A stretch of 64,000 nucleotides of DNA from Spironucleus salmonicida (lineage: Eukaryota), in the NCBI RefSeq assembly GCF_000497125.1, contig NC_090599.1:372001-436000 (forward strand), in the 5' to 3' direction. Position numbers and translations under genes: made by a program. Numbering within the stretch: position 1 is the first letter of the stretch; every line of letters begins with the position of its first letter. Positions 3,001-39,911 of the stretch are shown here, in pieces. The notes under the pieces are model-generated. The model was not told the origin of the DNA. It did not search any database and saw only the letters and a program-made list of their open reading frames with translations.

Positions 3001-3364
3001 AAAAATGCAGTAAACCGATAAAAATATAAGTTAATAACTCAAGTCAGGAACTTAAAGAATCATGTAATCATAATTAGAATCTAAAGAGTTATTTAGAGCT
3101 AAATCTTAGTTAAACTCACCTATTAGGAAATAACTACCTACTATACCAAAATCGTAAGGAAGAATGGTGTTAGCACGAGCTATATCATAAGCGTCTACTA
3201 TAGCATAAGAAACAAACTATAGATATTAAAAGGAAGTTAAAACTGTCAAATTTGATATTAATAATATAGAAAAGCGTATTACTGAAAATGCTAAGAAAGT
3301 AGAACTACCCACTCTCTTAAATATGACGAAAAGAGATCTAGCATAAAAATATAAAAAAGAGTGA
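2..3364 (+). CDS. WD40-repeat protein, 5'-truncated by the window edge (>1120 aa)
   Basis: Open in frame 2 with TAA/TAG=Gln, ending GAG-TGA. WD-type segments: IVSGTDRKLSIY, FTGDDKGQVHFW, LASGSSDGSICTFD, VSVGSDRQLNIW, LTVDVVGNIQQWD. Confidence 0.8.
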
Positions 3365-3464
3365 TCACATTTTTATATACCACAGCTGCATATGAAAAAA
3401 CTCAAGAATTTTCTCTCCACATAAATTTTAGATAGAATTTAAATAAAAATATATAATAATTATA

Positions 3465-3491
3465 TTCACCCCCTCCCTCTTTCTAAAATTT
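3465..3491 (+). promoter_or_regulatory. C-rich promoter-proximal element (example of the recurring TCC motif)
   Basis: TTCACCCCTCCCTCTTTCTAAAATTT lies directly before ATG 3492 and downstream of a TATA-rich tract; similar motifs precede many ATGs here. Confidence 0.55.
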
Positions 3492-4130
3492 ATGATGAGA
3501 GATTCTGAGAAAGATTAAAAAGTGTTTGCCGCTTTGAAGTATACACTGATTCATTATTTTGGTTTTGCAGAAAATATTATTTCGACTCCATCAGATTTAG
3601 TGTCTGTTTACGAACTTAATAAACGTCTGGTTAGCAAATAAAAAGGTGTTATGGAGTATACATCAACAGTGTTATAAGACTGCTTTAATTTGCCAATGTC
3701 AGCCAAATAACTATCCCATTATTACGCAAAAACTTTCTCTAAGCATGGGAAACTCCTTACGGTCTCAAAATCTGGTAAAGTAGACAAGCTTAGAGAAATC
3801 ATTAGGTTAGGGTTCCCAGGGCGCCGTAAATGCGAATTAGTTACTGACTGTATGACTGAGCTAGAAAACTAATATGCTAAGTCTGCAGTTGAAGGTTTCG
3901 TCTATAGAGAATGGAAGTCTCTTGAAGACTGCAAAGGAAATTATATACAATAACCATTAATTTCTCAAAAATCAGACAGACTCTTTAAAGATGAAGTTTA
4001 CTTACGAGAAGATACTTTTACACCCCTCTGCTCATAAATTTTAGATAAATCTTCTAGTGAAAAATACTCTCCATCCACCCGATCTTTTGCGCTAGATCTG
4101 TTGGTAACATGCGTTAGAGGATTTGAGTGA
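3492..4130 (+). CDS. hypothetical protein (212 aa)
   Basis: ATG follows a C-rich tract (CCCCTCCCTC); frame runs to GAG-TGA. No recognised domain. Confidence 0.65.
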
Positions 4131-4140
4131 AAAAAATTCT

Positions 4141-4779
4141 TCATTTTTGGTCCATATAACCGTTACAATTGTCACATCCACAGTAACAAATTGCCCTTTT
4201 CATACCTGACACGTACCTCATATTATAATTATAAGTAATTTCTTCCCCAATTAAAATATCCCGCACTGCTAGTAAATAAACATGACCATTTTGTTATTTT
4301 GATAATGCATTAGGAGAACAAGAGTGATTTGCAAATCGTGCGCTATTACCTGTAAAAGTAGCGTCAATGACTGACGTTTTCTAACCAATTCTAAACATAT
4401 AAGTCGAATCAAAACCGTATTCCATAAGCTTTTTCTCAGCTAAATCGGCTAGCGCTAATGAGTTATACATGATACCTTAGTACTCACAAATTGGTGTCCC
4501 TTTCTGTAGTATACGGTTAGCGAATAGGCCGTATCCATGGATAGAAGACCGCTTAACAATAATTTTTGGAGGTTATTAAAATTTTTACACAATGCATGTT
4601 TAGTGACGATATCCAGACGATGGTTTTGTTAGTGATGAGCAGAATTTTTATTACTCGAAGTATAGCTTTCTCTACGTCGAAAGATCTAATGGATGTATAG
4701 TGAGACATTTAGGTGGCAACTTGTTAATTTGTAGCTAAGATACTTCAAAACCAATTTAACCGATGTCAAGCAATTTCAT
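4141..4779 (-). CDS. SET-domain histone-lysine methyltransferase, SET1/H3K4-like, minimal (212 aa)
   Basis: KRSSIHGYGLFA, ICEYQG, YMFRI..VIDATFTGNSARFANHSCSPN, GEEITYNY and post-SET CYCGCDNC. Confidence 0.92.
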
Positions 4780-4869
4780 TTTTACAAAAATTAACTATTA
4801 TACTATATTAATAATAGCAGTCTTATGAATATTAAATTATAATATATAGAATAAGCAATTATTTTTAAA

Positions 4870-6546
4870 ATGTCACTAAAACCGCTTCCAGAAGAAATAA
4901 CAGATAAAACCTGTTCATTTTGTGGGGTTTCATATCTCATTATGCACGAAATTGAAGAGTTAAAAAATTAAATTGATGACTTAACACGCCGTCTAGCATA
5001 AGAAACAAGGAAAAATAGCAGTTCTAGGTAACAAGAAAACAACTCAAATAAATCTATATAAAGTCTAGCAGAACTTAATACATAGCTTAATAAAAGCTTA
5101 GAATAAAGTCAGGAGCAACTCGCAAAATACCGCAAAGACTTAGAGTTACAAAAAGACTTAATCGATGAATTTGAAAAAGAAAATATTATTTTAAAAAGAG
5201 GAGTTTAACATTTAAAAGTTGAACTCTCAGACTTTAAGAAATAATTAAAAATTTAAATTTAAGGCTATTAAACTGACAATAGCATTTAAATTATTTGTTC
5301 GGTAGAAAAAATAATAGAGATTAAAAATAGTGAAATCATTGAAACAAAATACGAAGTTAACAAACTTGAACAATAAAATATAATATTATAAACAGAGATT
5401 AAAAGTATTACTGAAATATTAGAGAGTACTCAGCAAAATTCATAGAAAGTCTTACAAGAAAATTCAGATTTACGGTTAATTTTATAAAATAGAGATATGG
5501 AAATTCAAAAACTTAACAATTTAATAGATAAGTTAAATCTAGATAAAACAGAGTAAGATTAAATAATTGCTAATCTCAACTAGTAAATACAGATTCTTGA
5601 AAACCAAAATAAAAAAATTTTAGCGTCGTAAACTACAGATTAAGACTTAACAAATCAGTTATAAATAAGATTAAATTAGCTTCAAGCTGATTATGATTAA
5701 TCATGTAAGCTTCTAAGTTCTGTAACGAATCAACTGAGAGATAGTAACTTACAATATATTGAATTGTAAACTGAATCAAAATAAATGCTCGAAAATACGA
5801 TTTCTGCAAAGGATGAGTTTATTCTTAATCTTAATAACCAGCTGAAGTAGCTCAAACAATAACTACTTGACACAAATTCTTCGTCGACTTATCAAACGCA
5901 ACAACTAGAAGACTTATTGCAAAAAATTCAGTCTTATAAAGAACATGAAAGCCTGTCCAGCACGTAAATTTTAGAGTTAAAAAGCAAATTACATTCTGCC
6001 AATATGACTATTGAACAACAAAAAGACTAAATTTAGTCCAAAACTGATACTATTGAAACACTCACACATCAAACCACCGATCTAACTGCTAAAAATAATC
6101 AGATTAAAACTGAAATAAGTGATTTATAACTACAGTTGTAAGACATTTCAATTAAGCAAAATTAAGCGTCTAAGAATTATCTTAGTCAAATTGATTAGCT
6201 GTAAACTGATATAAAGCAGAAACTCGAGCTGGTACAGTAGAAGTCAAATGAAATATTCGACTTAGAAAATTAGCTTAAAAATTTGGGTAAAATGATTGAA
6301 AATATGGAAAACTTAATCGAAAATAACAAAAACCAGCAAAATAATGACTAGTTAGAGCAGGAAAATACGAATTTGAAGGCGAAGCTGAAAGCGTTGCAGC
6401 AGACAGTTTTACACGAGTGCAAAGAGCGGAATGAATTGATGCGGACTCTCAGTTAATACAGGACGCAACTGTCGGAATTAGGAGTAATGAAGACACCGAA
6501 TTAATTGCCTTAAATTAGGTAAAATTCAAATAGGAAAGTGGAATGA
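4870..6546 (+). CDS. LEKR1-like coiled-coil protein (558 aa)
   Basis: N-terminal PLPEEI..CSFCGVSYLIMHE and C-terminal LQQTVLHECKERNEL resemble the conserved ends of LEKR1; heptad-rich middle. Confidence 0.75.
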
Positions 6547-6586
6547 TATATTTGTACTATTATATTAAATAAAATGTTACCAATTA

Positions 6587-8371
6587 ATGATACCATAGTT
6601 TGATATTAAGGAACATGATCCGTGTAATAATCAGAAGCAGAATTTCAGTAGCTTAAAACCATCATTATTTGCCTAACAAGCTTAAAATGGGCCACCAAAA
6701 ATATTTAAATGCAATATACAATAAAAGCCAATTATTAAGTAAAAAGAAATAGTAGAAGCAGTTACGATATAAGATATTCACGCTCATTTCAGTACCTCTC
6801 TTTAAGAAGCCGAGTATATACTCTAAGCGACGTCCTCTAAATCTTCATCAGTAAGAGGTAATGCATTCGTAGCACTTTCTGGTCTTCTCAAATAGGCTGA
6901 TTTGCCACTTTTAAGATGGTTCTACCATTCTGAAACCAGCCCAGTTACCCAAGCTTTTACCTTAATAGAAAAATACCCAAAAGATGCCTAATATCCACTT
7001 TAGCTTATTTCTGAAATGGCCGTTGGGGACGAAAACTATATAAACGAACTGGCTCTACCTTTCATCTAATAGTTTCCCAAATTCATAGTGCGAAAATAGC
7101 TTGGAGTCTTTCATGACAACATTGAATTTGGCTTGGAAGTTCTATCCAACGTTATAAACAACGTAGGTGACGAGTCGCGAAATTTGATATTTTTGATATT
7201 TGAGAGATTTTACACTAACTAAAAGTATATTACAGACCTCTTTGAGGGTGAGGTTACGCTCCAGCTGGAGCAGATAAAACGAAACGGTAACTTTCTCAAC
7301 ATGGCAGGCAGAATAGCGCTGCGCAACATCAAGCGCCCAGGATTAGATTTTAGCGTAATTGAGCTCCTCATGGCAAACTACGACGACTCGATTTAAGGGT
7401 ACGAAATTCTCTAAGTACTAGTCATGATTTGTGCGTACGTACTAAACGAGGAGCGGGAAGACGAAATTACGCTATTCAAGAAGTTCGTATCCTAGTAAAA
7501 AATCAACAGCTAAACACAGAAAAACAATATTGAGCAGCTATCGAAGGTAGCCTATATCCTAAAAGTTCAGATAGATGTCGATGATACATTTCTGGATGAG
7601 ACTTAGCTAAATTTAGAGCAAATTTTAACAAATTATCCATTTTTCATCAAAAACTGTGAAGAATATTTACGAAAAACAGATGACTGCTTGTTTGATAAGG
7701 CTATCAGTGCCGTTTTTGATACTTTTAATCATACTTAATTGAATAATTTATCACGCGAAAAATCTTTGTTTTTAGAAATTCAAGCTCCCTAAATAAGAAT
7801 TAGCGATCATTTACTGAATAAAATTAGTTTCTTGCACTTATTTAATAAATAATAAGTTGATAGTTCACTTCCAAAGTCGTTTTATTACCTAACTAATGCA
7901 TTCTCGTCGGATATTGACTATTTAAGTCAGTAATATGATTATAAATTTACAGATGAAAGGGTTCTTAATTCGTATGAAGCAGGTTATATAGGAGTTTTTA
8001 TGTTATAGGAATTTAAATTTCAAAAATTCAGTTCTCTTATTAAAAAGCTAGGTAAAAATGCATAAGATTTGTCGTTTATTCTAAATCTAGTAAATACCCT
8101 AGACGATACTAACTAGTAGATACCCACATCTTTATTTGATCTTTTTGATAATAGCAAACTATCATTGTTTAGTTAAACTGAGGTTTTCACGAAAGGAAAA
8201 ATATATAAAAAATTTTATAGTGTTTATTTTGAATTTATGCTTAGTTTAATACAATAATAAATTTTTATGGACTATAAATAAGTTGAAAAATTAATTTTCT
8301 TTGCTGATATATCTGATATTGAACTTCAAAGAGTTATGATTGACGTAAAGAAATTTTATAATATTTAGTGA
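6587..8371 (+). CDS. hypothetical protein (594 aa), probably alpha-helical
   Basis: Long open frame ending TAG-TGA. The upstream ATG at 6574 hits TGA after 9 codons, so 6587 was chosen. Confidence 0.65.
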
Positions 8372-8388
8372 AAGAATTAATTTATCAC

Positions 8389-11300
8389 TCAGAACAGATC
8401 ATTTTAATCATTAACATTATTACCAGCGTTCTAAGAGCTAGCAGAGTTGCTTAGTGAATTTGCTCCACTTCTGCTACTTCCCATACTTCTGCTCCTTTAA
8501 CTGATAATAGAATTATGACTAGCAGAACTTCTACTAGAATGGGAATTGTCGAGTGAATTAACAGCAGCTCTAGCATATTCATCATTTTCATAATGAATTA
8601 CTGCAGATGCACTATTACTTCTTCTAGAAAGTTAGTTAGACAGCTAAGAAACATGAGAACCAGAGTTAAAATGAGATCCAATTCTTGAACCATTGTTGGA
8701 TAAAAATGAATTACTTCTCATAGATCTTTACGAACCAGCGGAAATGGATCCTATAAATCCAGCCGATAAAGCACCCATAGCAGAAAATTAGGCAGAATAA
8801 ACATTGTTATTAACTGACATTTCAGCATGAGAAACGTTATCATTTTTAGCTTATTATGATTATTACATAGACAATAAAGCAGACTGAGGATGCGCAGTTT
8901 CTGGTGGCTACGGAAGTACAGACGTATCTAAAAGTAAATCAAAGGCACCAGTTCCATGCCTCATTTCAGCTCCCATTAATACAGCTGAAGAAATGGCCTG
9001 GCAATTGTCTTTAAGTGCAAAAGCTCCAGCATCTAAAAGAACATCGCCTGGCTATTCGAAAGAAGCTTGAGTAAGAACACCAGTATCTGTAATATGCATA
9101 CCATGGCGATTAATCGATACCATTTTACCATCTTAGGGATGGGACATCATGATATCTGCAAGCATAGAAAAGTGACGACCATTTAATCCGTCAGAAGGCA
9201 GAGTAACACGCATTTCTTTAACTAATAAAGAACGACACGCCTCAGTACCTAATACAGTATAAATTTCTGGAAGATCATTGCAATATGTACGGTATGAATC
9301 TACACCTTCCATGTTCAAAACGGATAGCAAATCTGACCCCTCTGTTCTGATAAAAAGCTCTTTAATAACATCATTCGATACATCTCCATCAGTATATTTC
9401 AAATTTTTGAAATAAATACCACCATATCTATCGATATAATTTGTATCTTCAGAATCTGCTTATTTTGAAGGAGAGCAATCATCTAGACCATACCCAATAA
9501 CTGGAGTATAGTTATCTCTAAATACCTTTTTAATACTTTCTAATCCGCCAATATGTATTTTTTAAATGATATCATTCATTTCAATAGCCTCCTTAATATC
9601 TACTGTTAAAATTTCAGGATCCAATAGTGGCCTAACTCTAATAACTATTTGACCAATACCATTATAATAACTTACAAGTGGGCCACCAGTTTCATCTGTA
9701 ACATAAAAATATGCACTAATAATATCAGAAATATGTTGAACTGTAAATCCAGCATCTTCCTTCTCAATTAATTTCTTGAGAGATATTTCATATCTGATAA
9801 CAAACGGAGAAGTTTCTTCGACACATTAGCAGAACCCAAACTATTCCTTAAGACTGAGCCAATGCTTATCTTATGGAATTAATGAATCTGAATCTAGTGG
9901 ATCAAACTCAATTGCCCATGAATCAATTAAGTCGGAAAAATAAGTATTTTCTAATCTAGCAGCCAACTCCATTAATTTTTAACCTTATAGTGATTGTCTT
10001 TCCTTATCCTGGTCTTATGTTTCAGCAAAGATATCTTTCTTATCTAAATCTAAATAAATAGACATAATAGGAATAGGAGTATTTCTAAAATCAATTAATT
10101 CTTTAAGGCGTGGCAAACCTAATGAACCTAGCGCAGAGGTACCAGCAGTATGGAAAGTATTAAGTGTCAATTAGGTTGCAGGTTCAGAAATAGAGTGCGA
10201 AGCTAGCGGGCCAACAGGTTCGCCAGGCTAACAAGCAGACTTTAAAAATTTATATTATAATTCCTCTATAATTTAATCAAACTAAGATCTTTTTAACCGA
10301 AGATTAAAAACAATATTTTTGCTGCATAATTACTAACGCAATATTACTCTAAATAACTTAGACTCATTGTGCTTTCTCTATTTCATAAATGAAATAAGTT
10401 TATTTACCTCCTATACAACATAAATAGGAGATAAGTCAGTTTATCTACTCTCATTTATATTAAGATCTAATTTATTCTTAACTATCTACTTGTTAATAAC
10501 ACGTTTAATATCACAAATTGTTGTCTTGGTACCTATATCGTTACTAGATAAAGTGTTATTTACTTTAAGAGAGTAAACTTCAATATTATGCATCCAAAAT
10601 CTTTCTATTAGTAGAGATAAATACTCTAGTTTTAATAAAGTAATGTTTTGTTCGCCAGAAAGAACTTAAGTATCCTCGATAACAGAGTTAACATCTACTT
10701 TAGTATTGTTCAAATAAGTTTTAACGTGAAATTAAAGATATGTCTATAACGAGTTTATGCTGAATAAATCTAAGTCTACATTAATACTAAATTAATTAAA
10801 TATTTGATCTTAGAACTAAAAATCTGCTATACCAATTTCATTTACATTTTATAATCTATCAATTAATTCTATGAATGAAGGAATATTAAATTCTTTTTGT
10901 TTTTGCATACCAAAAACTTCTGCTGTTAAATTTTTACAAGATTCTTCATAGTTGATAAAGAATTCTTTCGAAAATTGCTTATCTGAAAATCCAATAGATT
11001 TATAAGATTACGTTTCACACATATGTGGATCTAAACTATCATCCCCATATCTAAACTAAACTATATGGTTAACATCATTTCTAACTGAATTATCATAAGC
11101 TAATCCTAAGGATTCCATATTCTTCATCATTTTTCTTTCAACATAACCACTATCTGCAGTTTTAATAGCAGTATCACATACACCTTCTCTACCTCCAATC
11201 ATATGGAAGAAAAATTCACAAGGATCAAGTCCAAACATATAACTGTGTGCAACATATCCTCTAGAAGCCATATCAAAATTATACGGCAAGAAATGAGGTA

Positions 11301-13752
11301 ATGATCTATATGTCGCAAATTTAAAATTCATACGCTAACCATGAAGATACTATTAACCTAAGCAGGTTGAAATCTACATAATATTAAAAACTTTACCTTT
11401 AGAACCAGAGTTAACCATGCAAATCAAAGCATTTCTTTTAGATAAATCTGCTTTAACTACTTTTTCTAACTATTCTTATGACTACTAAAGCTATCTATTA
11501 AATGTGCCTTCAAAACCATTCTCTTTAGTTTATCCTGGAGCAAGTTAAATTTTATTGTTTATACTATCATAAATTGTATTTTAACAAGCAATAGAAAGAT
11601 TTTCTTAAATTACATTTGCTTGATCTTTTGCTTTTTAAGAAATGATCATATCTCCAAAACCGATACTGAACGAATGTTCAATCATAAAATTCGTCACAGT
11701 TCTTTAACAATTATCTAAGAAGGATCTACAATATTCTGGACTGAAATCCTTCCAAAGAACATGAATTAACCCTCCTTAAGCTTGACCAATAACCTTATTT
11801 GAAGCAACACCAGTTAATAATTCGCCTTATAAGATAATCTAACAAGTATCCGAATTAATATTATCAGCATTTCTCCCGCCAATATCTAAGTTAATTTACG
11901 TAGGTAATGACATTGAAAATAACTATTTGCCTGTCCAAAGAGTTTAAGGATAAAGTACAGCAGGTTATGGTGTATTTATAGCCAAAAATGGGTTATCAAT
12001 ATTGTTAGTACCAGCATAAAAACTACTTTATGCTTATTAAACACTAGATTCTTAACTTGAGGAATTATCAAAGGAATATGCATCATTTGATTCACCAGCA
12101 AGCAAACTTCTGTTTATAACACTTCCATAATCTTATCTGTAGTTAGCATCTGGATAACTTAAGAACATCATGAATTTTTAAAATGAATCCTAGGTCATAA
12201 ATTTGTCTTTTTATGTCATAATATAACTGCCTACTAAAGAATCTTAAACAATTGATATTAGTGGAGCGTTATGTTTACAACTGACTATCTACTTACTTAC
12301 GAGCATAATCTCAGCCATTTCAGAAATAGATTAAAGTGCTTATGGTTCATGCATATTCATCTCATCTCCATCAAAATCAGCATTATACGGTTTTGCAGCA
12401 CACAAATTTAGCCTAAATGTAGAGTATGGTAATACTTTTACACGATGACTCATAAAAGACATTTTATGAAGAGATGGTTAACGATTAAACATAACATAGT
12501 CACCTTCCAACAAATGTCTATGAACAATATCACCTATTTTAATATTGACTGGCTCCGTGGCCTAATCCAACCTCTTTAAACTAGAACCAATTTATACTAA
12601 ATTTGCACCGGGATATTAAGTTCCTTTGTGAACTAATTTTTACAAAAATTCTTTATTTCTAGCATTAACTGTCTCAGGGAAGCTTAACCTGGCAGCAACA
12701 GATCTAGGAACCCCTAATTAATCAATAGAAATAGTTGGATCTCCAGAAATAACACTACGCGAACAAAAGTTAACACGCTTACCCATACAATTATTTCTTA
12801 AAATACCATACTTACCTCTTAATCTATCAGTGATACCTTTAACTTATTTGACTGCTGTATTTTCCACCTTGGCTGTTTTAACAACAGATGCAAAGGCAGT
12901 TGCTATATTCCGTTAACATTCTAATCTGGCATCAGTACTTTCTCCTGCTGTTAATTTACTTCCTTATACAATCTAAACTAACTTTTAGTAAACATCAGTT
13001 AATTAATCCCTATTAGTCTACCCCATCATAAGAATTGTCGGTCTACAGCATTTAGGAAGAACAGGGATATGGCGTAAAACTAAATTAACAGGATTGTTAT
13101 TTTCTAATCCAAGTAGGAACAAATCAGAAGCTTAATATCGCGAAATAATTTAAATAGCTACTGCGCAGCTAATCGATTCTTCTTTACGAACCTCACCTTT
13201 ATTACCTTTAAATTACTCCTCAAAACGAATAATTTCATTAGTATCTGGTCTGTCCTTAAATAATATACGCGAGTCGCAACACTTTTCGTCTCTAGTTAAT
13301 TTATATAAAGCAGTGATAAAGTTTAATTTAGGCTAAGATGACCTAAATTATTGTATTCTCTCGTCTTATTTATCTCTTTCAGTTTCATATTATTCTAAAA
13401 TAACCCTATACTTTAATTTAGCACAGGTGGGGCAAAAACATGACATAATTTGAGCTAACTATTTGATTAATAAAGGATGGAATATTTAAACTGAGTCTAG
13501 ACTAATTGTACCAAAATGCCCAGGACATGGCTATTATCCAACTGCATCGCCACAAGTGCCATTACATTACTAGCATTAACCATCTTCAGGATAAACAACA
13601 CCTAAATGATTTGATTCTAAAGGATCAATGTTAGTATTATGTTCTTTATTGAGCAGTTTAAATGATGCCATGTGTTTATCACTAAAAATACTAAAATTAA
13701 CACCAGTAATCCTCCCAACAGGAATATCAATTTAGGTATCCTGAATGGGCAT
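8389..13752 (-). CDS. RPB1: DNA-directed RNA polymerase II largest subunit (1787 aa)
   Basis: CPGHFG, FNRQPSLHKMS, catalytic [11 protein letters not shown], bridge helix [25 protein letters not shown], trigger loop TLNTFH and [10 protein letters not shown]. Contiguous only with TAA/TAG=Gln. Confidence 0.95.
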
Positions 13753-16925: not shown

Positions 16926-17384
16926 TCACACCTCAAATCTGCAGAAAACAAGCGCGAAATCCTTAAACGAGATTTCACCTCCAAACTCATTACATAGGTC
17001 CTCAAGCTCCTGGCGCTCAGCCGGAATCCCGAGTTGTTGAAGGACAAACTACAGTTCCGATGCATTCACCATTCCGTCGCCGTTTCGGTCAAAACACAAG
17101 AAAACATCGCGAATGGTCGCCTCCTGGTCGTAGTTTCTAGACGAGTTTACGAGCAGTTTGGTGAAGTTAATAAACGAAATTTCCTGCGACTAGCAAAAAG
17201 TTTCCAGTATGTCCGCAATTTCACCCCTCGTTGGCTGTTGATTCAGAATGTGCATTATGCGGTCAATTTCATCGGGCTAGATCTTACCTGATTTGGAGAT
17301 ATTAAAGGCGTTAAAGGCCTCGCGGTACTCGTCCAAAAATTCGACTATTACGTCAGTTGGGATATCGTCCATATGTAGTTGCAT
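16926..17384 (-). CDS. calmodulin/centrin-like EF-hand protein, divergent (152 aa)
   Basis: EYREAFNAFNISKSGKIQPDE and VFLCFDRNGDGMVNASEL. Only one canonical-looking EF loop. Confidence 0.85.
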
Positions 17385-24396: not shown

Positions 24397-25104
24397 ATGA
24401 CGATCGTGTTTTTTGACTTGGACGGCGTTCTGGTGAAGGAATGTGGTGTCGCAGAATATGGTTACGCATACCTGCTGAATCTCTTAGCCGACCCGGTGTT
24501 CGATCTTTCGCAAGCTCCTGACCCCAAATACTTCAAAATAGCGTCCGAGCTGCGCCCAAAAATCAAAGGCCGTCACCCCATTGCGAAGGTGGAGATCATC
24601 TACAAATTACTATAAATTTCAGCTGCACAAATAGCGCGATTTCCTCCTGTCATGTCTGTCGAGCTCTGGTACGCCGCCCAGAGAACCTTTATCGTCAAAA
24701 ACCACCCAGTAGCCAGCTACATCGTCCCTGGTGCCAAGGAGCTGATATAACGTATGAAGAGTGCGAACATCACGCTCGCCACGCTGACTGCCAACGAGGC
24801 AGGCCAGGCAAAATGGCTATTGGAGTACTGCTGCGTGGAGTTCGACCATATATTCGGTTACGACCTTGAACGGCCTGATTTGGTGCTGAAGTAGGACCTC
24901 CCCAGATAGTTTCTGCGAGAAAATCACTTCGAGCGTGTTTTCGTGATCGGCGACGGCGTCCCGGACGTGTTGGCGGGAAACATTTTGGGGGTAAGCATTG
25001 GGATCGCCTGGGGCGACGATAACTACTAAAAACTGCAGGAAAACGGGGCAAGCCTGGTTTGCCGCGGTGTCGAGGTCGAAAAAATAATGACTTTTGTGGA
25101 GTGA
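24397..25104 (+). CDS. HAD-superfamily hydrolase (235 aa)
   Basis: Motif I VFFDLDGVL, PGAKEL, motif II LATLTAN and motif IV VIGDGVPDV. Confidence 0.88.
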
Positions 25105-26400: not shown

Positions 26401-26850
26401 TCAAAGCAAATCCTAGAAAAAGTCGTGAAACTCTTAAAATTAGATCTTTCCATCAGCATTAAAATCGATAACTTCAAACATATCATCAATGTCTTACTCT
26501 GTTAAGCTCATATGGCCAATATTAACTAATAATTACTACAACTCTTTTCTATCAATTTCTCCTGAGTCATCCTTATCAACAAGTCTAAATATATTTTTCA
26601 ATTCGGTTTCTTTGTCTTGTGGCTTCAGAATTGTCATAAATTTACAAAATTCATCGAAATCCATGTAACCATTGCCATCTTCATCTACCTTTCCTACATT
26701 CTTAACAATAGATTCACGGGTGTACTTTATATGAAGCTACTTTAACATGGTTTCTATTTCTGCAATATCAATAAAACCGTTACCATCTAAATCAAAAGCT
26801 TTAAATGTTTCATAAAGTTCAGCTTTTAGCTCAGCCGTAACTGTATTCAT
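26401..26850 (-). CDS. calmodulin-like protein, four EF-hands, tandem copy A (149 aa)
   Basis: Loops DLDGNGFIDIAE, DEDGNGYMDFDE, DKDDSGEIDRKE, DFNADGKIQFQE. Confidence 0.92.
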
Positions 26851-26967
26851 TTAAAAATATATATGGAATGGAAATATATGAGTAATAATATGTACGAACT
26901 TCATAAATTTACTGATAAGTAATATGAATATATTAAGAATAATTATTATATGTTAAATTTTTATCAA

Positions 26968-27417
26968 TCACAGACAATCTTAGAAAAAGTCATGGAACTC
27001 TTAGAAACTAATTAACCCAGATTTAGAAATATTCAATATCTCAAAGCAGTCATCAATTTCCTAATCTGATAATTTCATATGTCCAATATTGACTAGCAAC
27101 TCCTGGAGCTCGGTACGATCAATCTCACCTGAATCATCAGTATCAACTAATTTAAAAATATTTTTAAGTTCTACCTCTTTGTCTTTTGGCTTAATTAAAA
27201 CCATAAACTTACAAAATTCTTCAAAGTCCATGTAACCATTACCATCATCGTCAATTTTATTCATATTTTTCACAATCGTATCAACATTATATTTGATATG
27301 TAACGATTTTAACATAGTTTCTATCTCATTCAAATCAACAAAACCATTACCATCAATATCAAATGCTTTAAAAGTCTCGTATAATTCAGTTCTAAGCTGT
27401 TATGAAATTTCAATCAT
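26968..27417 (-). CDS. calmodulin-like protein, tandem copy B (149 aa)
   Basis: Loops DIDGNGFVDLNE, DDDGNGYMDFEE, DTDDSGEIDRTE and degenerate NISKSGLISFQE. Colinear with copy A. Confidence 0.92.
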
Positions 27418-27574
27418 TTAACTCTAAATCTAAATAACTAATAATATTTAAATAAGATTAATTATTTAGTTTTTGTCAATAGATTATAAATATTTATTGC
27501 ATATAATATACTGATAGAAACATAATAATTTTCTAACTAACATTATTATATCCTAATATATACTTAACCTGAAA

Positions 27575-28102
27575 ATGTTCGCCATTCCCAATTATCCAAT
27601 TCTGATAATCTACGCCACCCAAACTGGCACAACCAAGCAGATAGCTAAAGACCTCCACTCTAACCTCCAAAACTAAGGCTTTTAAGCAATTTTAAAGCAA
27701 ATAAACGGCCTTAAACCTAGCGATTTAACTGGCGTTTCTGCATTCATTTTTGCAACGTCCACGTACGGCGCGGGCGAGTTCCCGCAAATGGCAATTCGGC
27801 CCCTCGCGGAATTCAAAACGCCAGCTTTTGCGCAGCATTTCAAGGGGCTGAAATACGGAATTTTCGGCGTCGGATCCACCGAATTTGCGAGTTTCTGCAG
27901 CGCCGCCGACGCTGCGGAGCGGCTTTTCGAGGGCCTCGGCTGCAGGAAAATCATCGAAATTGGGCGCCTGGACCGGGCGCGGAAGCTGGGCGATCAGCAG
28001 GCCGGGGGCGTCCTGGGCTGGTGCGACGAGTTCGCGCGCTTCGTCCAGCCGGTCGACGGGATGACGATTTGCAGAGAAATCGAGACCATTTTCGAGGAGT
28101 GA
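27575..28102 (+). CDS. stand-alone flavodoxin (MioC / P450-reductase FMN-domain type, 175 aa)
   Basis: FMN motifs IIYATQTGTTKQIA, TSTYGAGEFP and YGIFGVGSTEFASFC. Confidence 0.9.
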
Positions 28103-28221
28103 CGGAGTGTTTTCCTGGAGGAATTGGCACTATCGTGCGGGTTTGGGAATGAGTCTAAAAATAGCATCAAATTAAAAATTTTGATATAATAAAAATAAAA
28201 CTTTTTAAAATCGACGGAATC

Positions 28222-28788
28222 TCACATCTTGGCGTACCAGTCGAGGCCTCTAGGCTCAAATGGCTTGTCGGCCATGCACACGGGGCACTTCATAGGGGCC
28301 TTGGCGCCGACGTGGACGTAGCCGCAGATCATGCAGATCCAGGTCGTGTCGTCCTTCTGGGCGAAGACGCTCTCGGTCTCCACGAGCTTGACCAGGTTGG
28401 CGAACCGCTGGGCGTGGTCGGCCTCGATCTTGGCGAGGTTGCGGAACAGGGCTGCGATGGCGGGGAAGCCCTCGTCGGCGGCCACCTTGGAGAAGGCGGG
28501 GTAGGCGTGCTCGGCCTCCTCGGTCTCGCCGGCGACGGCCAGCTTCAGGTTCTCGAGCGTGGTGCCGAGCTTGCCGGCGGGGTAGCAGGCGTTGATCTCG
28601 AGGTCGCCGCCCTCCAGGAAGGAGAAGAGGCGGAAGGCGTGCTGCTTCTCCATCTCGGCGTTGTTGGCGAAGATGTGCTGGATGTAGGGGAAGCCCTCGT
28701 CCTTGGCCTTGTTGGCGAACTGCATGTAGCGGTTGAACGCCTGCGACTCGCCCGCGAAGGCCTTGAGCACGTTCTTTTCGGTTTCGGA
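28222..28788. repeat. left arm of a 567-bp inverted repeat (rubrerythrin core), partner 38441..39007
   Basis: Reverse complement matches 38441..39007. One difference was seen by eye (Pro CCT vs CCC). Confidence 0.92.
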
Positions 28789-28809
28789 ACCCTTGATTGA
28801 CTTAACCAT
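28222..28809 (-). CDS. rbr: rubrerythrin, canonical short form (195 aa)
   Basis: AFAGESQA..RY, diiron ligands EKQH, GETEE, EADH, and rubredoxin domain WICMICGY...CPVC. Confidence 0.96.
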   Translation of the reverse strand: MVKSIKGSETEKNVLKAFAGESQAFNRYMQFANKAKDEGFPYIQHIFANNAEMEKQHAFRLFSFLEGGDLEINACYPAGKLGTTLENLKLAVAGETEEAEHAYPAFSKVAADEGFPAIAALFRNLAKIEADHAQRFANLVKLVETESVFAQKDDTTWICMICGYVHVGAKAPMKCPVCMADKPFEPRGLDWYAKM

Positions 28810-36171: not shown

Positions 36172-37083
36172 TCACATTCCAAATAGCTAATTGATAACAA
36201 TTTCTACATTTCCTCCAGCAATTTCCAATAACTACAAAATCTCATCATCCGGCTGCGTTAATCCCATCTATCTAATCATCTCTAGCTGTGATGCGTACTT
36301 TGTCTTCAATTCGTCAAAATTAAGCTAGAGAGGCTGCACGTCAGGAATTTCAGGAAGCTCTCCAAATTCGTCGTTTAGTTCTCCCATCTCGCGTAAGCGG
36401 TCTAGCTAGGCCTATTCAAACTTATCTGCCTCATCTTCTTCAAAGCTTTCCCTGTTCTTCTTTACGGCGTCCAGAGACTGCTAAATAAGCTTTTTAAGCT
36501 CCTCTTTGTTACTGAAATCGAACTCCCTAGATCCAAAAAATGCCTTCAGATTATCCTTTGTCTTAGGGTCGCTGATGACCTTTTCTAGAAAAGCTTCGTC
36601 AGCTAGCAATTTTTCAGCGAATTTTTCACTTTTTAGGTTCGTGTCAGCCGATAAGATCGCCTCTGGGCTAAACATGTTGGAATCGGCGACAGTCTCGAAG
36701 GGGTTTTAGACGATTTGTTCTGGTGCAATAACATCAAGATAACTACGTGGGAACCATTCCTTGCTTTCTATTTATGGTTTAGACTCGGATTTCTTTGGGG
36801 AGCTCACTGCTGCAACTTTTGGCATTTCTACTTTCGAAGTCTCTACAACTTTTGCCGTTTACGAAACGTTAACAATGATAGTTGAGCCGTCTGCGACTTT
36901 TTAGTCAGGAAGGGACTTGTTGGCGTTTAAAATTGAGGATCCGTGGACCAATTTAATATTTGCGGTAGGATCAAACTCAAAATTTTAAATAGCTAGTTAT
37001 TTTATGGTATCAACAGTAGCTGTATCTGCTATTTCTATCTCAACCACTTTGTGTGTTTTCAAATGCTTGAGATTAATCTTCAT
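36172..37083 (-). CDS. UBL-UBA proteasome shuttle factor (Dsk2/ubiquilin-like, 303 aa)
   Basis: N-terminal ubiquitin-like MKINLK...IKLVHGSSIL...DGSTIIV; C-terminal UBA KYASQLEMIQQMGL...LEIAGGNVEIVINQLF. Confidence 0.88.
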
Positions 37084-38353
37084 TTGGTATAGTGGAGTGG
37101 CATAATCAAATGCTATATTATGTGTTTAAATTTAAATTTGGGATTTATTTAATAGATTTACGAATTGAACATTATATATGACTATTGATATTATGAAATA
37201 TTACTATAGTTGTTGATATATGATTAACGCTACTGCCTATTTTCTGTGGATCAGTTAAATACCTTATTTTATTAACTATAAAAACGAAAAAAACAGTATA
37301 TATGGTATATATTTTAATCAGAACTAAGCTGTAAAAACGTATTTATTTACAGTACTAAAGTACTATACGTTAAATCAGAAAAATTCATCTAATAATAACA
37401 GCACTAATGTTAATAAATTAGAAAAAATCTAGTTAAGTAATACAACTAAATAACTAATTTCTTAATTATCGATTTCAATCACCAAGGCTTATCGAAAGAA
37501 TAAAAGTTAGGATTCTATCACTCTCATTCAAGATTTTTATCATTTTATGCTGCTGTAGTTGGTAAGCAGAAGAAGAAACTTAAATTTAATTTAATGGAAA
37601 TACATTGATCATATTACAATATTATTGAAGTATAAATCAATCTTAATTGATATCCTATTAACTTTCTATCATTATTGATACATAAATACCAAAAAATATT
37701 TTCAATAAAGACACAATTAAAATTTATATTAAAAAACTAGAATATTTTATGAAAAATAATTAAGAATAATTACTGAATGACAAAATAATGATAAGTTAAG
37801 TTGTTATTAACATTTGAAATATTTGCATATAAAAATAAAGAAGCTCTTATGTTTATTGATTAAAATATTATAGCTTAATCCTGATTTCTATATATAAATG
37901 TTCATAAATAATATACTATTTATATATTATTTTTTTAAACTACATATCTTATATCTGTATTTAATACATAAGTATCTAGCCTGGTGAACTACAAGATTTG
38001 GCGACAATCTTTTCCCAGTCCACATTTCATCCTAATATTAATTATTATATTATGACCACTATGTATAATATAAAAGTATACTATAATCAAATCTTGTATG
38101 CACATATATTGTAAATAAGTTACTAATGATGAATGTAATATTTTAATTAAAAAAATTATTACATATAATTTTAAATAATGTAGCCATTAAAAGCAGAACT
38201 AGAACAAAACTTCTGAAAAAAAGTATACAAGAATTCATAATATCTAATTTAATAATAATAGTACATATTTTAAATAATTGTATACATAGTAATTTACATA
38301 TTACAATATAATCCAATAATTTATTTTTAAGTTACATATGCACTCCATCAAAA

Positions 38354-39007
38354 ATGGGATGCGCTAATACAGCTGAGATCGTCAAAGAGTATCATGATTA
38401 AAAAGGATCCTTTTAACGGGAAAAGGGCCTTCTTAAAGGCTCCGAAACCGAAAAGAACGTGCTCAAGGCCTTCGCGGGCGAGTCGCAGGCGTTCAACCGC
38501 TACATGCAGTTCGCCAACAAGGCCAAGGACGAGGGCTTCCCCTACATCCAGCACATCTTCGCCAACAACGCCGAGATGGAGAAGCAGCACGCCTTCCGCC
38601 TCTTCTCCTTCCTGGAGGGCGGCGACCTCGAGATCAACGCCTGCTACCCCGCCGGCAAGCTCGGCACCACGCTCGAGAACCTGAAGCTGGCCGTCGCCGG
38701 CGAGACCGAGGAGGCCGAGCACGCCTACCCCGCCTTCTCCAAGGTGGCCGCCGACGAGGGCTTCCCCGCCATCGCAGCCCTGTTCCGCAACCTCGCCAAG
38801 ATCGAGGCCGACCACGCCCAGCGGTTCGCCAACCTGGTCAAGCTCGTGGAGACCGAGAGCGTCTTCGCCCAGAAGGACGACACGACCTGGATCTGCATGA
38901 TCTGCGGCTACGTCCACGTCGGCGCCAAGGCCCCCATGAAGTGCCCCGTGTGCATGGCCGACAAGCCATTTGAGCCTAGAGGCCTCGACTGGTACGCCAA
39001 GATGTGA
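38354..39007 (+). CDS. rbr: rubrerythrin with N-terminal extension carrying an MGCxxT dual-acylation-type motif (217 aa)
   Basis: ATG 38354 reads MGCANTAEIVKEYHDQKGSFQREKGLLKGSETEKNVLKAFAGESQ through two TAA=Gln codons into a core identical in protein to 28222..28809. Confidence 0.9.
38441..39007. repeat. right arm of the 567-bp inverted repeat
   Basis: Identity starts at TCCGAAACC and ends at the TGA stop. Confidence 0.92.
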
Positions 39008-39116
39008 TATGCTTCATTTATTTAATTAACCATTTATTGAGATTAATTTACATTTATTCACACAAAATATCATCAACAATTAATATTATATTATTATTAA
39101 TATTTAGTCTGGTAAA

Positions 39117-39911
39117 ATGTCACTTGAAGCTGACTAAGTTGAAAAAGTTAAAGCCACCATCACAGAATATTCAGAACAGAATAAAATATCTTATTTACAT
39201 AAATATAGTGATATAAATGTTTCAGTGGCTTCTAGAATTGCTAAAGATTTATAACTATAAAAATATATATTACTCAATCCTATAATATCAGAGTTAACAT
39301 GCACGCTTTTAGATGATTTATAATTAGATATTGATGCTATTAAGATAGCATAAAAATGCATAGAATTGCATCCTATGAATAATAATGAATAAAACACACT
39401 AATTGCTATTTAAGAAAAAGTATCACGTTTGCTTTCAATAGATTTACACCCACAGTAAGTTGATTTAGACCTACATTGGATTCAGAAGTTCGCTCCTAAT
39501 ATTAACTTAAAAATACTGTTACCTAAAACACTAAATGATGCCATATCTCTGTTATCATCAGATTCAAATTTATATAAAGTTTTAGGTGTATACCAGTTAC
39601 CATAACTATACAGTCATGCTCCTAATGCACTTAAATACAAAGAGACAATAAATTTACATAGGCTTGTATCAAATGTTCCTTGCTCATTTCTTTTAGGCCC
39701 AAGATAATCACATAATTTAAAAAGTTCATTTGCGCGAGAAATAATTAGTTTTCAGCCTGAAATTTTCATAAAAATCTGCAAATTTTCTCATTGGGAATTA
39801 GCCAGTATTGTGTAAACGATAGAGGTTTTGGATGATCAGACATAGTAATTATTTTTGAGTTATCCAGAAGTCTAATGTATTTTTGAAACTAAGGCATTAA
39901 ATATGCAATGA
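39117..39911 (+). CDS. hypothetical protein (264 aa)
   Basis: Fully translated from MSLEADQVEKVK to CAA-TGA. Confidence 0.62.

What the first reader, a model, noticed from the sequence alone, without database searches (positions are those of the whole stretch)
38354..38440. Rubrerythrin paralog with a lipid-anchor-type N-terminus: candidate membrane-tethered peroxide reductase
Seen: the second rubrerythrin appears to lack an ATG in the standard code. With TAA=Gln it starts at 38354 and replaces MVKSI with MGCANTAEIVKEYHDQKGSFQREKGLL (+22 aa). The extension is AT-richer and uses TAA, while the core uses CAG for Gln. Established: M-G-x-x-x-S/T is the N-myristoyltransferase consensus, Cys3 is the usual second palmitoylation site, and such dual acylation targets protist proteins to plasma or flagellar membranes. 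Rubrerythrins are typically soluble prokaryote-derived diiron peroxidases. Inference: a eukaryotic acylation signal has been grafted onto a laterally acquired antioxidant enzyme, giving one soluble and one membrane-anchored isoform with the same catalytic core. I do not know of a description of this arrangement.
Basis: partly seen in the sequence, partly recalled or inferred. Interest (0 to 1): 0.9.

Follow-up and report, generated by a model that had tools for sequence, protein, structure and literature searches.

The report
Rubrerythrin copy with lipid-anchor-type start
A fish-parasite protist carries an extra copy of a bacterial-type peroxide-removing enzyme whose start has moved upstream, adding a short head that looks like a signal for fatty-acid anchoring to membranes; the gene model is already public, but the anchoring idea is new and untested.

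Summary
The window matches Spironucleus salmonicida, which reads TAA and TAG as Gln. It holds two rubrerythrin-1 CDSs, 28809..28222 (-) and 38354..39007 (+). They are identical from 38441 to the stop except for one synonymous base.

Copy 2 has no ATG at the usual place. Its only usable ATG is 38354, which gives MGCANT... and a protein 22 residues longer. This exact 217-aa protein is already in public databases, so the gene model is not new.

Evidence for 38354 as the start:
- GC content rises from 12-23% to about 40% at that point.
- It has a C-rich patch plus an A-run before the ATG. Only 2 of 419 comparable ATGs in the window have this, and the other is copy 1's start.
- Contigs of 4 runs (RNA is only a guess) join the leader to the core.

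Caveat: those contigs begin at 38362, 8 nt inside the CDS.

The leader fits the myristoylation and Cys3-palmitoylation pattern. The chance estimate is 6e-5. No other of 273 session rubrerythrins starts MGC. Acylation, the acylating enzymes and localisation are all untested.

Verdict: a plausible (~0.45) lipid-anchored variant of a known enzyme. Moderate interest.

The parts
38340..38353 (+). Promoter-proximal signature: a C-rich patch (5 C within -16..-4) followed by four A directly before the ATG
   Evidence: of 419 ATGs with AT-rich upstream DNA, only 38354 and copy 1's 28809 have AAA plus at least 5 C. Xu 2014 (PMC3916229, section 10 read) describes a C-rich motif about 10 bp upstream and an A-run before the ATG as promoter/initiator elements of this organism.
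38354..38356 (+). Proposed and publicly annotated start codon of rubrerythrin copy 2
   Evidence: The exact 217-aa product is in NCBI/UniRef/eukprot. It is the only in-frame ATG between 38129 and 38504.
38357..38371 (+). Codons 2-6 (Gly-Cys-Ala-Asn-Thr): candidate N-myristoylation site (Gly2) with a candidate palmitoylation site (Cys3)
   Evidence: pattern match; the pattern is recalled. Chance estimate 5.8e-5. Acylation itself was not tested.
38354..38434 (+). Leader, 27 codons. Residues 1-26 have no counterpart in other rubrerythrins. Two TAA=Gln codons at 38399-38401 and 38414-38416.
   Evidence: GC 0.407, GC3 0.37; the PDB match starts at residue 27; 149 of 150 best representatives match from residue 19 or later.
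38435..39004 (+). Rubrerythrin core: diiron four-helix bundle plus a C-terminal rubredoxin-like Cys4 domain
   Evidence: PF02915 7.8e-28; PF21349 2.4e-11; invariant E43, E76, H79, E117, E120, E151, H154, C181, C184, C197, C200. E 3e-52 to 1b71/1ryt.
39005..39007 (+). TGA stop, the only stop codon in this organism. Identity with copy 1 ends here.
   Evidence: Xu 2014 and Andersson 2007 passages: the poly(A) signal overlaps TGA and the tail starts about 13 nt downstream.
38435..39010 (.). One arm of a 576-nt, 99% inverted repeat with 28219-28794. Bases are identical from 38441 to 39007 except 38935 (C here, T in copy 1). Read as a gene-conversion tract confined to the CDS.
   Evidence: Codons 28 and 29 differ synonymously (AAA/AAG, GGC/GGT) and the flanks are unrelated.
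38362..39007 (+). Stretch covered by contigs of four public runs (kind guessed as RNA). The contigs bridge the leader/core junction. Adapter-like letters directly precede 38362 in 3 of 4 runs.
   Evidence: tables 7 and 8: records 38362-38469, 38362-38615, 38362-38978 and 38370-38514. Three have 0 other letters. The 38362-38978 record has 1 (T for C at 38935).
28222..28809 (-). Rubrerythrin 1 copy 1, 195 aa, canonical MVKSIKGS start. Paralog and presumed conversion partner; the presumed soluble form.
   Evidence: 100% to P0122 over residues 1-195.
27575..28102 (+). Short-chain flavodoxin gene, tail to tail with copy 1 and 119 nt away. Candidate electron donor.
   Evidence: PF00258 2.1e-23. Stairs 2019 proposes flavodoxin as the electron carrier to rubrerythrin (passages).

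Best explanation
Copy 2 is a live, oxygen-responsive paralog of rubrerythrin 1 of Spironucleus salmonicida. Its catalytic core is kept identical to the canonical copy by gene conversion. Its 5' end lies outside the converted tract and has lost the canonical Met. Translation instead starts at ATG 38354, 66 nt further upstream in coding terms, behind its own C-rich/A-run promoter element. This puts a 26-residue hydrophilic leader in front of an intact diiron peroxidase. After removal of Met1, the leader presents Gly2-Cys3-x-x-Thr6, which would be N-myristoylated co-translationally and then palmitoylated on Cys3. That would hold the enzyme on the inner face of the plasma or flagellar membrane, while the 195-aa copies stay soluble. 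Shown: the sequence, the gene model, the intact catalytic residues, the promoter-like signature, the conversion tract, and the leader/core junction in independent reads. Inferred: that the mRNA includes AUG 38354, that acylation occurs, and that the protein is on a membrane.
For: Identity and intactness: Pfam Rubrerythrin plus rubredoxin-like domain. All 7 iron ligands and 4 Cys are invariant in a 28-sequence alignment. E 3e-52 to D. vulgaris rubrerythrin from residue 27. Start codon: 38354 is the only in-frame ATG that keeps Glu43. The 60-nt GC profile steps from 0.12-0.23 to 0.42 at 38330-38389. Leader GC is 0.407 against 0.185 for the 27 codons upstream. AAA plus at least 5 C at -16..-4 occurs at 2 of 419 ATGs with AT-rich upstream DNA, namely this one and copy 1's start. 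That matches the published promoter architecture (Xu 2014, section 10). The exact 217-aa product is in NCBI/UniRef/eukprot. The 2022 re-annotation adjusted starts using orthologs and A-rich motifs (PMC9509377 passages). Junction: contigs of 4 of 4 runs (one study, kind guessed as RNA) bridge leader and core. Three of these records have 0 other letters and one has 1 (T for C at 38935). Their word depth is 1317-13067. Expression: gene order FLD - rbr - 3 genes - rbr in the window fits the published numbering FLD SS50377_11261 ... RBR1 SS50377_11266. RBR1 SS50377_11266 is reported up-regulated by oxygen, LFC 2.6 and 3.1 (Stairs 2019 tables). The assignment is my inference. Motif: the leader fits the recalled N-myristoylation pattern with Cys3. 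Chance is 5.8e-5. The leader is hydrophilic, with 4 acidic and 4 basic residues and no hydrophobic core, as a tether would be. Precedent in this organism: annexins 3 and 12 carry a predicted myristoyl+palmitoyl signal and localise to the flagellum (Einarsson 2016 passages). Giardia mRNAs have 1-14 nt leaders and its ribosomes do not scan (Franzen 2013 passage). So an AUG 4 nt after an A-run initiator fits diplomonad rules.
Against: In 3 of 4 laid runs a contig has adapter-like letters immediately before 38362, and in the fourth the contig starts at 38370. If these are cDNA, the dominant fragment end lies 8 nt downstream of the A of ATG 38354. Taken at face value that leaves the AUG out of the mRNA. 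The leader is unique to this one gene. Only P0001 of 273 session rubrerythrins starts MGC (1 of the 123, 0 of the 150), so nothing shows conservation. No relative of the leader was found. Core integrity does not prove selection on copy 2, because conversion from copy 1 would preserve it anyway. The presence of N-myristoyltransferase and palmitoyltransferases in this genome was not tested, since no genome is held. No paper in the held library links rubrerythrin with myristoylation or palmitoylation. The motif is six residues long.
Confidence: 0.45

Rival explanations
1. Translated from 38354, but the leader is a neutral by-product. When the canonical ATG was lost, the nearest upstream in-frame ATG took over. 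The MGC start is a coincidence, the protein is not lipidated or only marginally so, and it behaves like the soluble copies.
For: The leader is poorly codon-adapted (GC3 0.37 against 0.958 in the core, with both Gln as TAA), as expected for young, weakly selected sequence. It is unique: only P0001 of 273 session rubrerythrins starts MGC. With only TGA as a stop, upstream frames stay open easily (the frame is open back to 38126). The permissive myristoylation pattern alone is met by about 0.6% of random N-termini.
Against: The stricter Gly2+Cys3+Ser/Thr6 combination is expected at 5.8e-5. Sequences of this form are usually good N-myristoyltransferase substrates (general knowledge, recalled). Other proteins of this organism are predicted to carry the signal.
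Confidence: 0.25
2. Transcribed but non-productive duplicate. The mRNA really begins at 38362 and lacks AUG 38354. Its first AUG (38394-38396) is out of frame and opens a 96-codon overlapping frame. The next in-frame AUG (38504) would delete the first iron ligand. The CDS looks intact only because gene conversion from copy 1 keeps overwriting it.
For: Adapter-like letters abut 38362 in 3 of 4 runs, and the fourth contig starts at 38370. The out-of-frame ORF 38394..38684 is listed. The conversion tract covers 38441-39007 with one difference.
Against: The C-rich patch plus A-run sits exactly before 38354, as it does at copy 1's functional start (2 of 419). GC rises at about 38340, not at 38362. 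An mRNA starting at 38362 would have no AUG within the 1-14 nt typical of diplomonad leaders (Franzen 2013 passage). Standard second-strand cDNA synthesis is known to lose roughly ten 5' nucleotides (recalled, not checked here), which would turn a start at about 38350 into an observed end at 38362. Curators kept the 217-aa model.
Confidence: 0.2
3. The leader is functional but not as a lipid anchor. It could be an organelle (hydrogenosome) import signal, a docking segment for a redox partner, or a regulatory or degradation tag.
For: Rubrerythrins of other anaerobic protists are organellar. The title of Putz et al. 2005, on hydrogenosomal rubrerythrin of Trichomonas, was seen in the reference list. 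The leader is expressed together with the core in the laid contigs.
Against: The leader has 4 acidic residues in 26 and mean hydropathy -0.95, with no hydrophobic stretch. That is unlike presequences or signal peptides. It shows no similarity to any domain: no candidate, and the best local match, to a glutaredoxin-rubrerythrin linker (P0136), was reached by 83 of 2000 shuffles.
Confidence: 0.07
4. Assembly or annotation artefact: the leader/core junction does not exist in the organism.
For: Near-identical repeats can be mis-joined in assemblies.
Against: Contigs from four separate runs cross the junction (38362-38469, 38362-38615, 38362-38978, 38370-38514). Three have 0 other letters and one has 1, at 38935. 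The same protein is recorded in several public sources.
Confidence: 0.01

Closest known systems
Rubrerythrin 1 of Spironucleus salmonicida, 195-aa copies (P0122 in the window at 28809..28222; P0002 elsewhere on the same contig)
   Same: Same catalytic core. Copy 1 is DNA-identical from 38441 to the stop except for one synonymous base, and P0002 is 99% identical as protein. Same promoter-proximal signature (copy 1). Same published oxygen-induced family.
   Different: Residues 1-4 (MVKS) are replaced by a 26-residue leader starting Met-Gly-Cys. The leader has low codon adaptation and uses TAA for Gln.
Desulfovibrio vulgaris rubrerythrin (PDB 1ryt, 1b71, 1lkm and others)
   Same: Residues 27-213 align to chain residues 3/4-190/191 at E 3e-52. 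All diiron ligands and the Cys4 site are conserved.
   Different: The bacterial protein is cytoplasmic and has no leader. The electron donor in the protist is unknown, and flavodoxin has been proposed.
Dual-acylation (myristoyl-Gly2 + palmitoyl-Cys3) flagellar targeting in diplomonads: alpha-19 giardin of Giardia; annexins 3 and 12 of S. salmonicida
   Same: The same type of N-terminal signal in the same lineage. Those proteins localise to flagella (Einarsson 2016 passages). Saric 2009 is not held and is known to me only through that citation.
   Different: Those are cytoskeleton- or membrane-binding annexins, not redox enzymes. For S. salmonicida even their acylation is only predicted. I could not compare the sequences.
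Organelle-targeted rubrerythrins of other anaerobic protists (Trichomonas hydrogenosome, Entamoeba)
   Same: A laterally acquired rubrerythrin given a eukaryotic localisation by an N-terminal addition (titles and passages; details recalled).
   Different: That is import into an organelle by a presequence, not lipid anchoring.
Prokaryotic rubrerythrins with N-terminal export-signal-like or transmembrane-like extensions (P0170, P0163, P0148, P0229, P0197 among the 150 best representatives)
   Same: They suggest that the rubrerythrin fold tolerates N-terminal additions and may be placed at or beyond a membrane (read by eye from the sequences).
   Different: The mechanism differs (twin-arginine-like or Sec-like signals, or a helix anchor) and so does the side of the membrane. 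None starts Met-Gly-Cys (0 of 150).

Membership tests
Rubrerythrin (Pfam PF02915 + PF21349) | Four-helix-bundle diiron domain with the Glu and Glu-x-x-His ligand sets | tested here: met
   PF02915 E 7.8e-28, residues 35-161. E43, E76, H79, E117, E120, E151, H154 invariant in 28 sequences; these align to residues 20, 53, 56, 94, 97, 128, 131 of 1b71 (their role as ligands is recalled).
Rubrerythrin (Pfam PF02915 + PF21349) | C-terminal rubredoxin-like Cys-x-x-Cys ... Cys-x-x-Cys iron site | tested here: met
   PF21349 E 2.4e-11, residues 179-204. C181, C184, C197, C200 invariant.
Rubrerythrin (Pfam PF02915 + PF21349) | Peroxide reductase activity with a reduced electron carrier | not testable with these tools
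   Needs an enzyme assay. The donor is unknown in this organism (Stairs 2019 passage).
N-myristoyltransferase substrates | Gly directly after the initiator Met | tested here: met
   conditional on initiation at 38354.
N-myristoyltransferase substrates | Permitted residue at position 3, small residue (Ser/Thr preferred) at position 6, no Pro at position 7 | tested here: met
   Cys3, Thr6, Ala7 fit the PROSITE-type pattern, which I recalled rather than retrieved. No dedicated predictor was available.
N-myristoyltransferase substrates | The mRNA contains the AUG that exposes Gly2 | tested here: inconclusive
   contigs start at 38362 (3 runs, adapter-like letters before it) or 38370 (1 run), 8 nt or more inside the CDS. 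The promoter signature points to a start just upstream of 38354.
N-myristoyltransferase substrates | N-myristoyltransferase encoded by the organism | not tested
The enzyme is near-universal in eukaryotes (recalled).
N-myristoyltransferase substrates | Covalently attached myristate | not testable with these tools
   Needs metabolic labelling or mass spectrometry.
Dually acylated Met-Gly-Cys proteins | Cys next to the myristoylated Gly | tested here: met
   Cys3.
Dually acylated Met-Gly-Cys proteins | Palmitoyltransferase present, and membrane or flagellar localisation that depends on Gly2 and Cys3 | not testable with these tools
   Giardia DHHC proteins are known only from a reference title seen. 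Localisation needs tagging experiments.
S. salmonicida genes with the C-rich promoter motif (Xu 2014) | 11-nt C-rich motif about 10 bp upstream of the ATG, with an A-run directly before the ATG | tested here: inconclusive
   A C-rich patch (5 C in -16..-4) and four A are present. The published logo is in a figure that is not held, so the exact motif could not be scored.
Hydrogenosomal presequence or secretory signal peptide (considered) | Basic or hydroxylated N-terminus without acidic residues, or a hydrophobic core of about 7 or more residues | tested here: not met
   4 acidic residues in 26. The most hydrophobic 7-mer averages 0.66 and the mean hydropathy is -0.95.

The most novel reading that the evidence does not exclude
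A bacterial-type diiron peroxidase acquired by lateral transfer has been re-localised within one species by a start-codon shift that created a dual-acylation signal from scratch. It would be the first lipid-anchored rubrerythrin known to me, placed under the plasma or flagellar membrane of a blood-invading anaerobe as a first line against host peroxide. Gene conversion would keep its catalytic core identical to the soluble copies. The result would be two destinations sharing one continually homogenised enzyme.
Probability: 0.35. Interest if true: 0.65.

Novelty: new variant of a known kind. Interest (0 to 1): 0.45.

Why it matters
If the leader is acylated, it would show how a laterally acquired prokaryotic enzyme gains a eukaryotic address in one small step: loss of one ATG and use of another 66 nt further upstream in the coding frame. 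It would also show that gene conversion can keep the catalytic part of differently targeted paralogs identical. For the biology of this salmon parasite it would place peroxide removal at the membrane that first meets oxygenated host tissue. That bears on how an anaerobe survives in blood, the question raised by Stairs 2019. It is directly testable, because transfection and tagging are established in this organism. If the leader is not acylated, the locus is still a clear case of a start-codon shift next to a conversion tract, but an ordinary one.

Tried and rejected
- Whole genome of the window: none is held. So N-myristoyltransferase, palmitoyltransferases, the third rbr1 copy and other Met-Gly-Cys proteins could not be searched.
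- Sequencing runs: no RNA holder listed. The four holders are only guessed to be RNA.
- Laid contigs left 37900-38361 and 39028-39300 without cover. A hole proves nothing, and I do not use it as evidence.
I could not lay the same runs on copy 1 or other genes to calibrate how far inside a CDS these libraries' 5' ends fall.
- Origin of the leader: a search with residues 1-40 found no candidate sharing three words, which is uninformative. A metagenome scan matched 126 pattern stretches, but none encodes a relative of the query by tblastn. An apparent alignment of leader residues 4-17 to the linker of a glutaredoxin-rubrerythrin fusion (P0136) was rejected, because 83 of 2000 shuffles reach its score and it was the best of 30 comparisons.
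- A simple insertion after ATGG, or a retrocopy of copy 1, was rejected. There is no shared 3' UTR or poly(A) remnant, and the codons before 38435 do not align.
- Bacterial-type promoter and terminator scan: not applicable to this eukaryote.
- tRNA and Rfam scans of the window: nothing found.
So there is no model of the leader.
- One literature search was badly framed and useless.
- Saric 2009 is not held. Supplementary files, which may list gene lengths, expression values or annexin N-termini, were not seen.
Full report
WHAT THE WINDOW IS. The window is AT-rich (mostly 22-35% GC per kb). It has very long frames only if TAA and TAG are read as Gln, for example 2542 aa with 181 such codons. The rubrerythrin in question finds 'Rubrerythrin 1 [Spironucleus salmonicida]' at 99% identity and 'Rubrerythrin 2' of the same species at 79%. 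An exact look-up places the window's proteins on a public contig of 1,696,856 bases. So this is the diplomonad S. salmonicida, for which table 6 is the normal code. Neighbouring genes are ordinary eukaryotic ones: ubiquitin-like, Kelch, EF-hand, HAD hydrolase and M24 peptidase.

THE OBSERVATION. There are two rubrerythrin CDSs in the window and no third (tblastn).
- Copy 1 is 28809..28222 on the minus strand, 195 aa, and starts MVKSIKGSETEK.
- Copy 2 ends at 39007 on the plus strand. Under table 11 its frame is open only from 38417. The first ATG inside that frame is 38504, after the first iron ligand.
- Under table 6 the frame is open back to 38126, with in-frame ATGs at 38126, 38129 and 38354 only.
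- From 38354 the product is 217 aa and starts MGCANTAEIVKEYHDQKGSFQREKGLLKGSETEK. TAA is read as Gln at codons 16 and 21.
The leader has GC 0.407 and GC3 0.37, with two TAA Gln codons. The core has GC 0.644 and GC3 0.958, with six CAG.

THE GENE MODEL IS NOT NEW. The exact 217-aa sequence is already in NCBI, UniRef, nr and eukprot. It sits in one 90% cluster with the two 195-aa forms P0122 (copy 1) and P0002, a third copy with one amino-acid difference that lies outside the window. Several points are already in print:
- Multiple rbr genes, their prokaryotic origin and their induction by oxygen: Andersson 2007 PMC1805757, Stairs 2019 PMC6397501 and Jimenez-Gonzalez 2019 PMC6934886 (passages read).
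- The GC-rich core is not a sign of recent transfer. Andersson 2007 reports strikingly different codon usage in highly expressed genes. Other genes in the window, such as the flavodoxin and the HAD hydrolase, are also GC3-rich.

HOW THE TWO COPIES RELATE. The copies form a 576-nt, 99% inverted repeat 9640 nt apart. Bases are identical from 38441 to the stop codon, except 38935 (C in copy 2, T in copy 1). The two codons before that, Lys28 and Gly29, differ synonymously. Everything further out on both sides is unrelated.

A recent duplication would also have copied the flanks. A retrocopy would carry the roughly 13-nt 3' UTR and a poly(A) remnant (UTR length), and it does not. The simplest reading is that these are old paralogs whose CDSs are homogenised by gene conversion. 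The tract ends where homology ends. The leader therefore lies just outside the converted tract and can be older than the 99.8% identity suggests. It also follows that the intact core does not by itself prove selection on copy 2.

IS 38354 A REAL START? Evidence for:
1. It is the only ATG that gives a complete enzyme. All seven iron ligands and the four Cys are present. Residues 27-213 align to D. vulgaris rubrerythrin residues 3/4-190/191 at E 3e-52.
2. GC in 60-nt windows is 0.12-0.23 up to 38359 and 0.42 from 38330-38389 onward. The 27 codons upstream have GC 0.185, against 0.407 for the leader.
3. Xu 2014 (PMC3916229, section 10 read) describes S. salmonicida promoters. They have a C-rich 11-mer about 10 bp before the ATG in 16.7% of genes, mostly highly expressed ones. 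At least three A stand directly before the ATG in 33% of genes. Copy 2 has 5 C within -16..-4 and four A before 38354, and copy 1 has 6 C and three A. The window holds 419 ATGs, on both strands, whose -120..-21 region is below 25% GC. Of these, 34 have AAA before them, and only 2 also have at least 5 C at -16..-4. Those two are exactly the two rubrerythrin starts.
4. The 2022 re-annotation adjusted 976 start codons using orthologs and A-rich motifs, with RNA-seq as a guide (PMC9509377 passages). It kept the long model.
5. Contigs of four public runs bridge the leader and the core (38362-38469, 38362-38615, 38362-38978, 38370-38514). Three have 0 other letters and one has 1 (T for C at 38935). 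The runs come from one study, and their kind is only guessed to be RNA. Word depths are 1317-13067. So the junction is real in independent data. All 3 junctions before 38362 carry one kind of adapter-like letters, and all 3 junctions behind inserts (38469, 38653, 38650) carry the other kind. That is what a strand-specific cDNA library of a plus-strand transcript would give. This is my reading of recalled adapter sequences, not a tool result.
6. The gene order in the window is flavodoxin, copy 1, three ORFs (2099, 256 and 303 aa), copy 2. This fits the published numbering FLD SS50377_11261 ... RBR1 SS50377_11266 (Stairs 2019 tables). If so, copy 2 is the rbr1 gene reported as up-regulated by oxygen (LFC 2.6) and by antioxidant depletion (LFC 3.1). 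This is an inference from numbering. The tool hides public names for the window's own proteins.

Evidence against. In three runs the contig starts exactly at 38362 with adapter-like letters before it, and in the fourth it starts at 38370. Many sequenced fragments therefore end 8 nt downstream of the A of the ATG. At face value the AUG is not in the mRNA. The first AUG would then be 38394, which is out of frame and opens a 96-codon frame.

Two considerations weaken this reading.
- Giardia mRNAs have leaders of 1-14 nt and its ribosomes do not scan (Franzen 2013 passage). An mRNA starting at 38362 would then be untranslatable, which is odd for an abundant transcript.
- Standard second-strand cDNA synthesis is known to lose about ten 5' nucleotides (recalled, not verified here). 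That would turn a start in the A-run (about 38350) into an observed end at 38362.

I put the probability that AUG 38354 is used at about 0.7-0.75.

IS THE LEADER A LIPID-ANCHOR SIGNAL? After Met removal the N-terminus is Gly-Cys-Ala-Asn-Thr-Ala. That fits the recalled N-myristoylation pattern: Gly, then a permitted residue, two free positions, a small residue at position 6, and no Pro next. Cys3 is in the classic palmitoylation position.

From amino-acid frequencies of 12,881 residues of window genes, Gly2+Cys3+Ser/Thr6 is expected at 5.8e-5 per random N-terminus. The permissive pattern alone is expected at 0.6%.

The rest of the leader is hydrophilic. It has 4 acidic and 4 basic residues, mean hydropathy -0.95 and no hydrophobic core. 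That suits a flexible tether and does not suit a presequence or a signal peptide.

In the same organism, annexins 3 and 12 are predicted to carry a myristoyl+palmitoyl signal like alpha-19 giardin, and they localise to the flagellum (Einarsson 2016 PMC4863580, passages). So the route is plausible here.

Several things were not tested:
- whether the genome encodes the transferases (no genome is held);
- any acylation;
- any localisation;

IS THERE ANYTHING LIKE IT?
- Among the 123 rubrerythrins held after the first search, 112 have 15-18 residues before the Ala-Gly-Glu-Ser motif. Ten have 20 or more residues before it. Eight of those ten contain a canonical internal Met, so they look like over-long ORF calls. 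Only P0001 and one metagenome protein (P0090) truly lack it. Five of the 123 start Met-Gly, and only P0001 starts Met-Gly-Cys.
- In the search of 1.84 billion representatives, 5983 proteins matched at E up to 0.001. Of the best 150, 4 start Met-Gly and none starts Met-Gly-Cys. In 149 of the 150 the match to the query starts at residue 19 or later. The one earlier start, P0136, a glutaredoxin-rubrerythrin fusion, is not significant.
- Some prokaryotic members have N-termini that look like twin-arginine or Sec signals, or a transmembrane helix (read by eye). So rubrerythrins at or beyond a membrane are not unheard of, but they get there by other means.
- In the held library, papers containing both 'rubrerythrin' and 'myristoyl' (4) or 'palmitoyl' (7) are unrelated by title. 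The diplomonad papers do not mention either modification.

VERDICT. The most likely account, at about 0.45, has four parts:
- it is an expressed paralog whose start moved upstream;
- its core is kept identical to the soluble copies by gene conversion;
- its new N-terminus is a working dual-acylation signal;
- that signal ties a peroxide reductase to the plasma or flagellar membrane.

Rivals:
- translated but not lipidated (0.25);
- transcribed without the AUG, so non-productive (0.2);
- another role for the leader (0.07);
- artefact (0.01).

It is a new variant of known kinds: a known enzyme combined with a known targeting signal in a combination not described before. Interest is moderate, because everything beyond the sequence remains to be shown. 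The decisive experiments are easy in this organism.

Noticed in passing
27575-28102 (+) and 28222-28809 (-): A short-chain flavodoxin gene lies tail to tail with rubrerythrin copy 1, 119 nt apart. In the published gene lists, flavodoxin genes SS50377_11261 and _11235 sit a few numbers from RBR1 genes _11266 and _11237. So a flavodoxin-rubrerythrin pair may have been duplicated as a module. This fits the published proposal that flavodoxin feeds electrons to rubrerythrin.
   Followed up: partly
28219-28794 and 38435-39010: The two rubrerythrin CDSs form a 576-nt, 99% inverted repeat 9640 nt apart. Its identity stops at the stop codon and at codon 29/30. This looks like concerted evolution by gene conversion confined to the CDS. 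Such a repeat could also invert the 9.6 kb between the arms.
   Followed up: partly
37084-38353: A 1270-nt spacer of about 18% GC lies between the divergently placed ubiquitin-like gene (start at 37083, minus strand) and copy 2. That is about three times the published mean intergenic distance of 421 bp. It has no tRNA and no Rfam match.
   Followed up: partly
26401-26904 (-), the C-terminal part of ORF 26968-27954 (-), and 16926-17384 (-): Two adjacent, clearly related EF-hand (calmodulin-like) genes lie in tandem, with a third EF-hand gene 10 kb away. The long ORF 26968-27954 runs antisense through the flavodoxin gene, so its real start is probably internal.
   Followed up: no
window-wide, e.g. 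24397-25104, 27575-28102, 28222-28809, 38435-39004: Single genes stand out as GC-rich islands (GC3 0.63-0.96) in a 22-30% GC background, while long genes have GC3 of 0.21-0.41 and mostly TAA/TAG for Gln. This agrees with the published codon bias of highly expressed genes.
   Followed up: partly
P0124, P0125 and others (representative library, not the window): There are very large proteins made of repeated rubrerythrin units. P0124 has 1957 aa, 8 matched stretches and a signal-peptide-like N-terminus. There is also a glutaredoxin-rubrerythrin fusion (P0136). Their origin is unnamed.
   Followed up: no
38935: The single base that distinguishes the two CDSs (C in copy 2, T in copy 1) appears as T in a contig that starts in copy 2's leader in run X3, and as C only in run X4. 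This is probably contig simplification, but it could reflect ongoing conversion or allelic variation.
   Followed up: no
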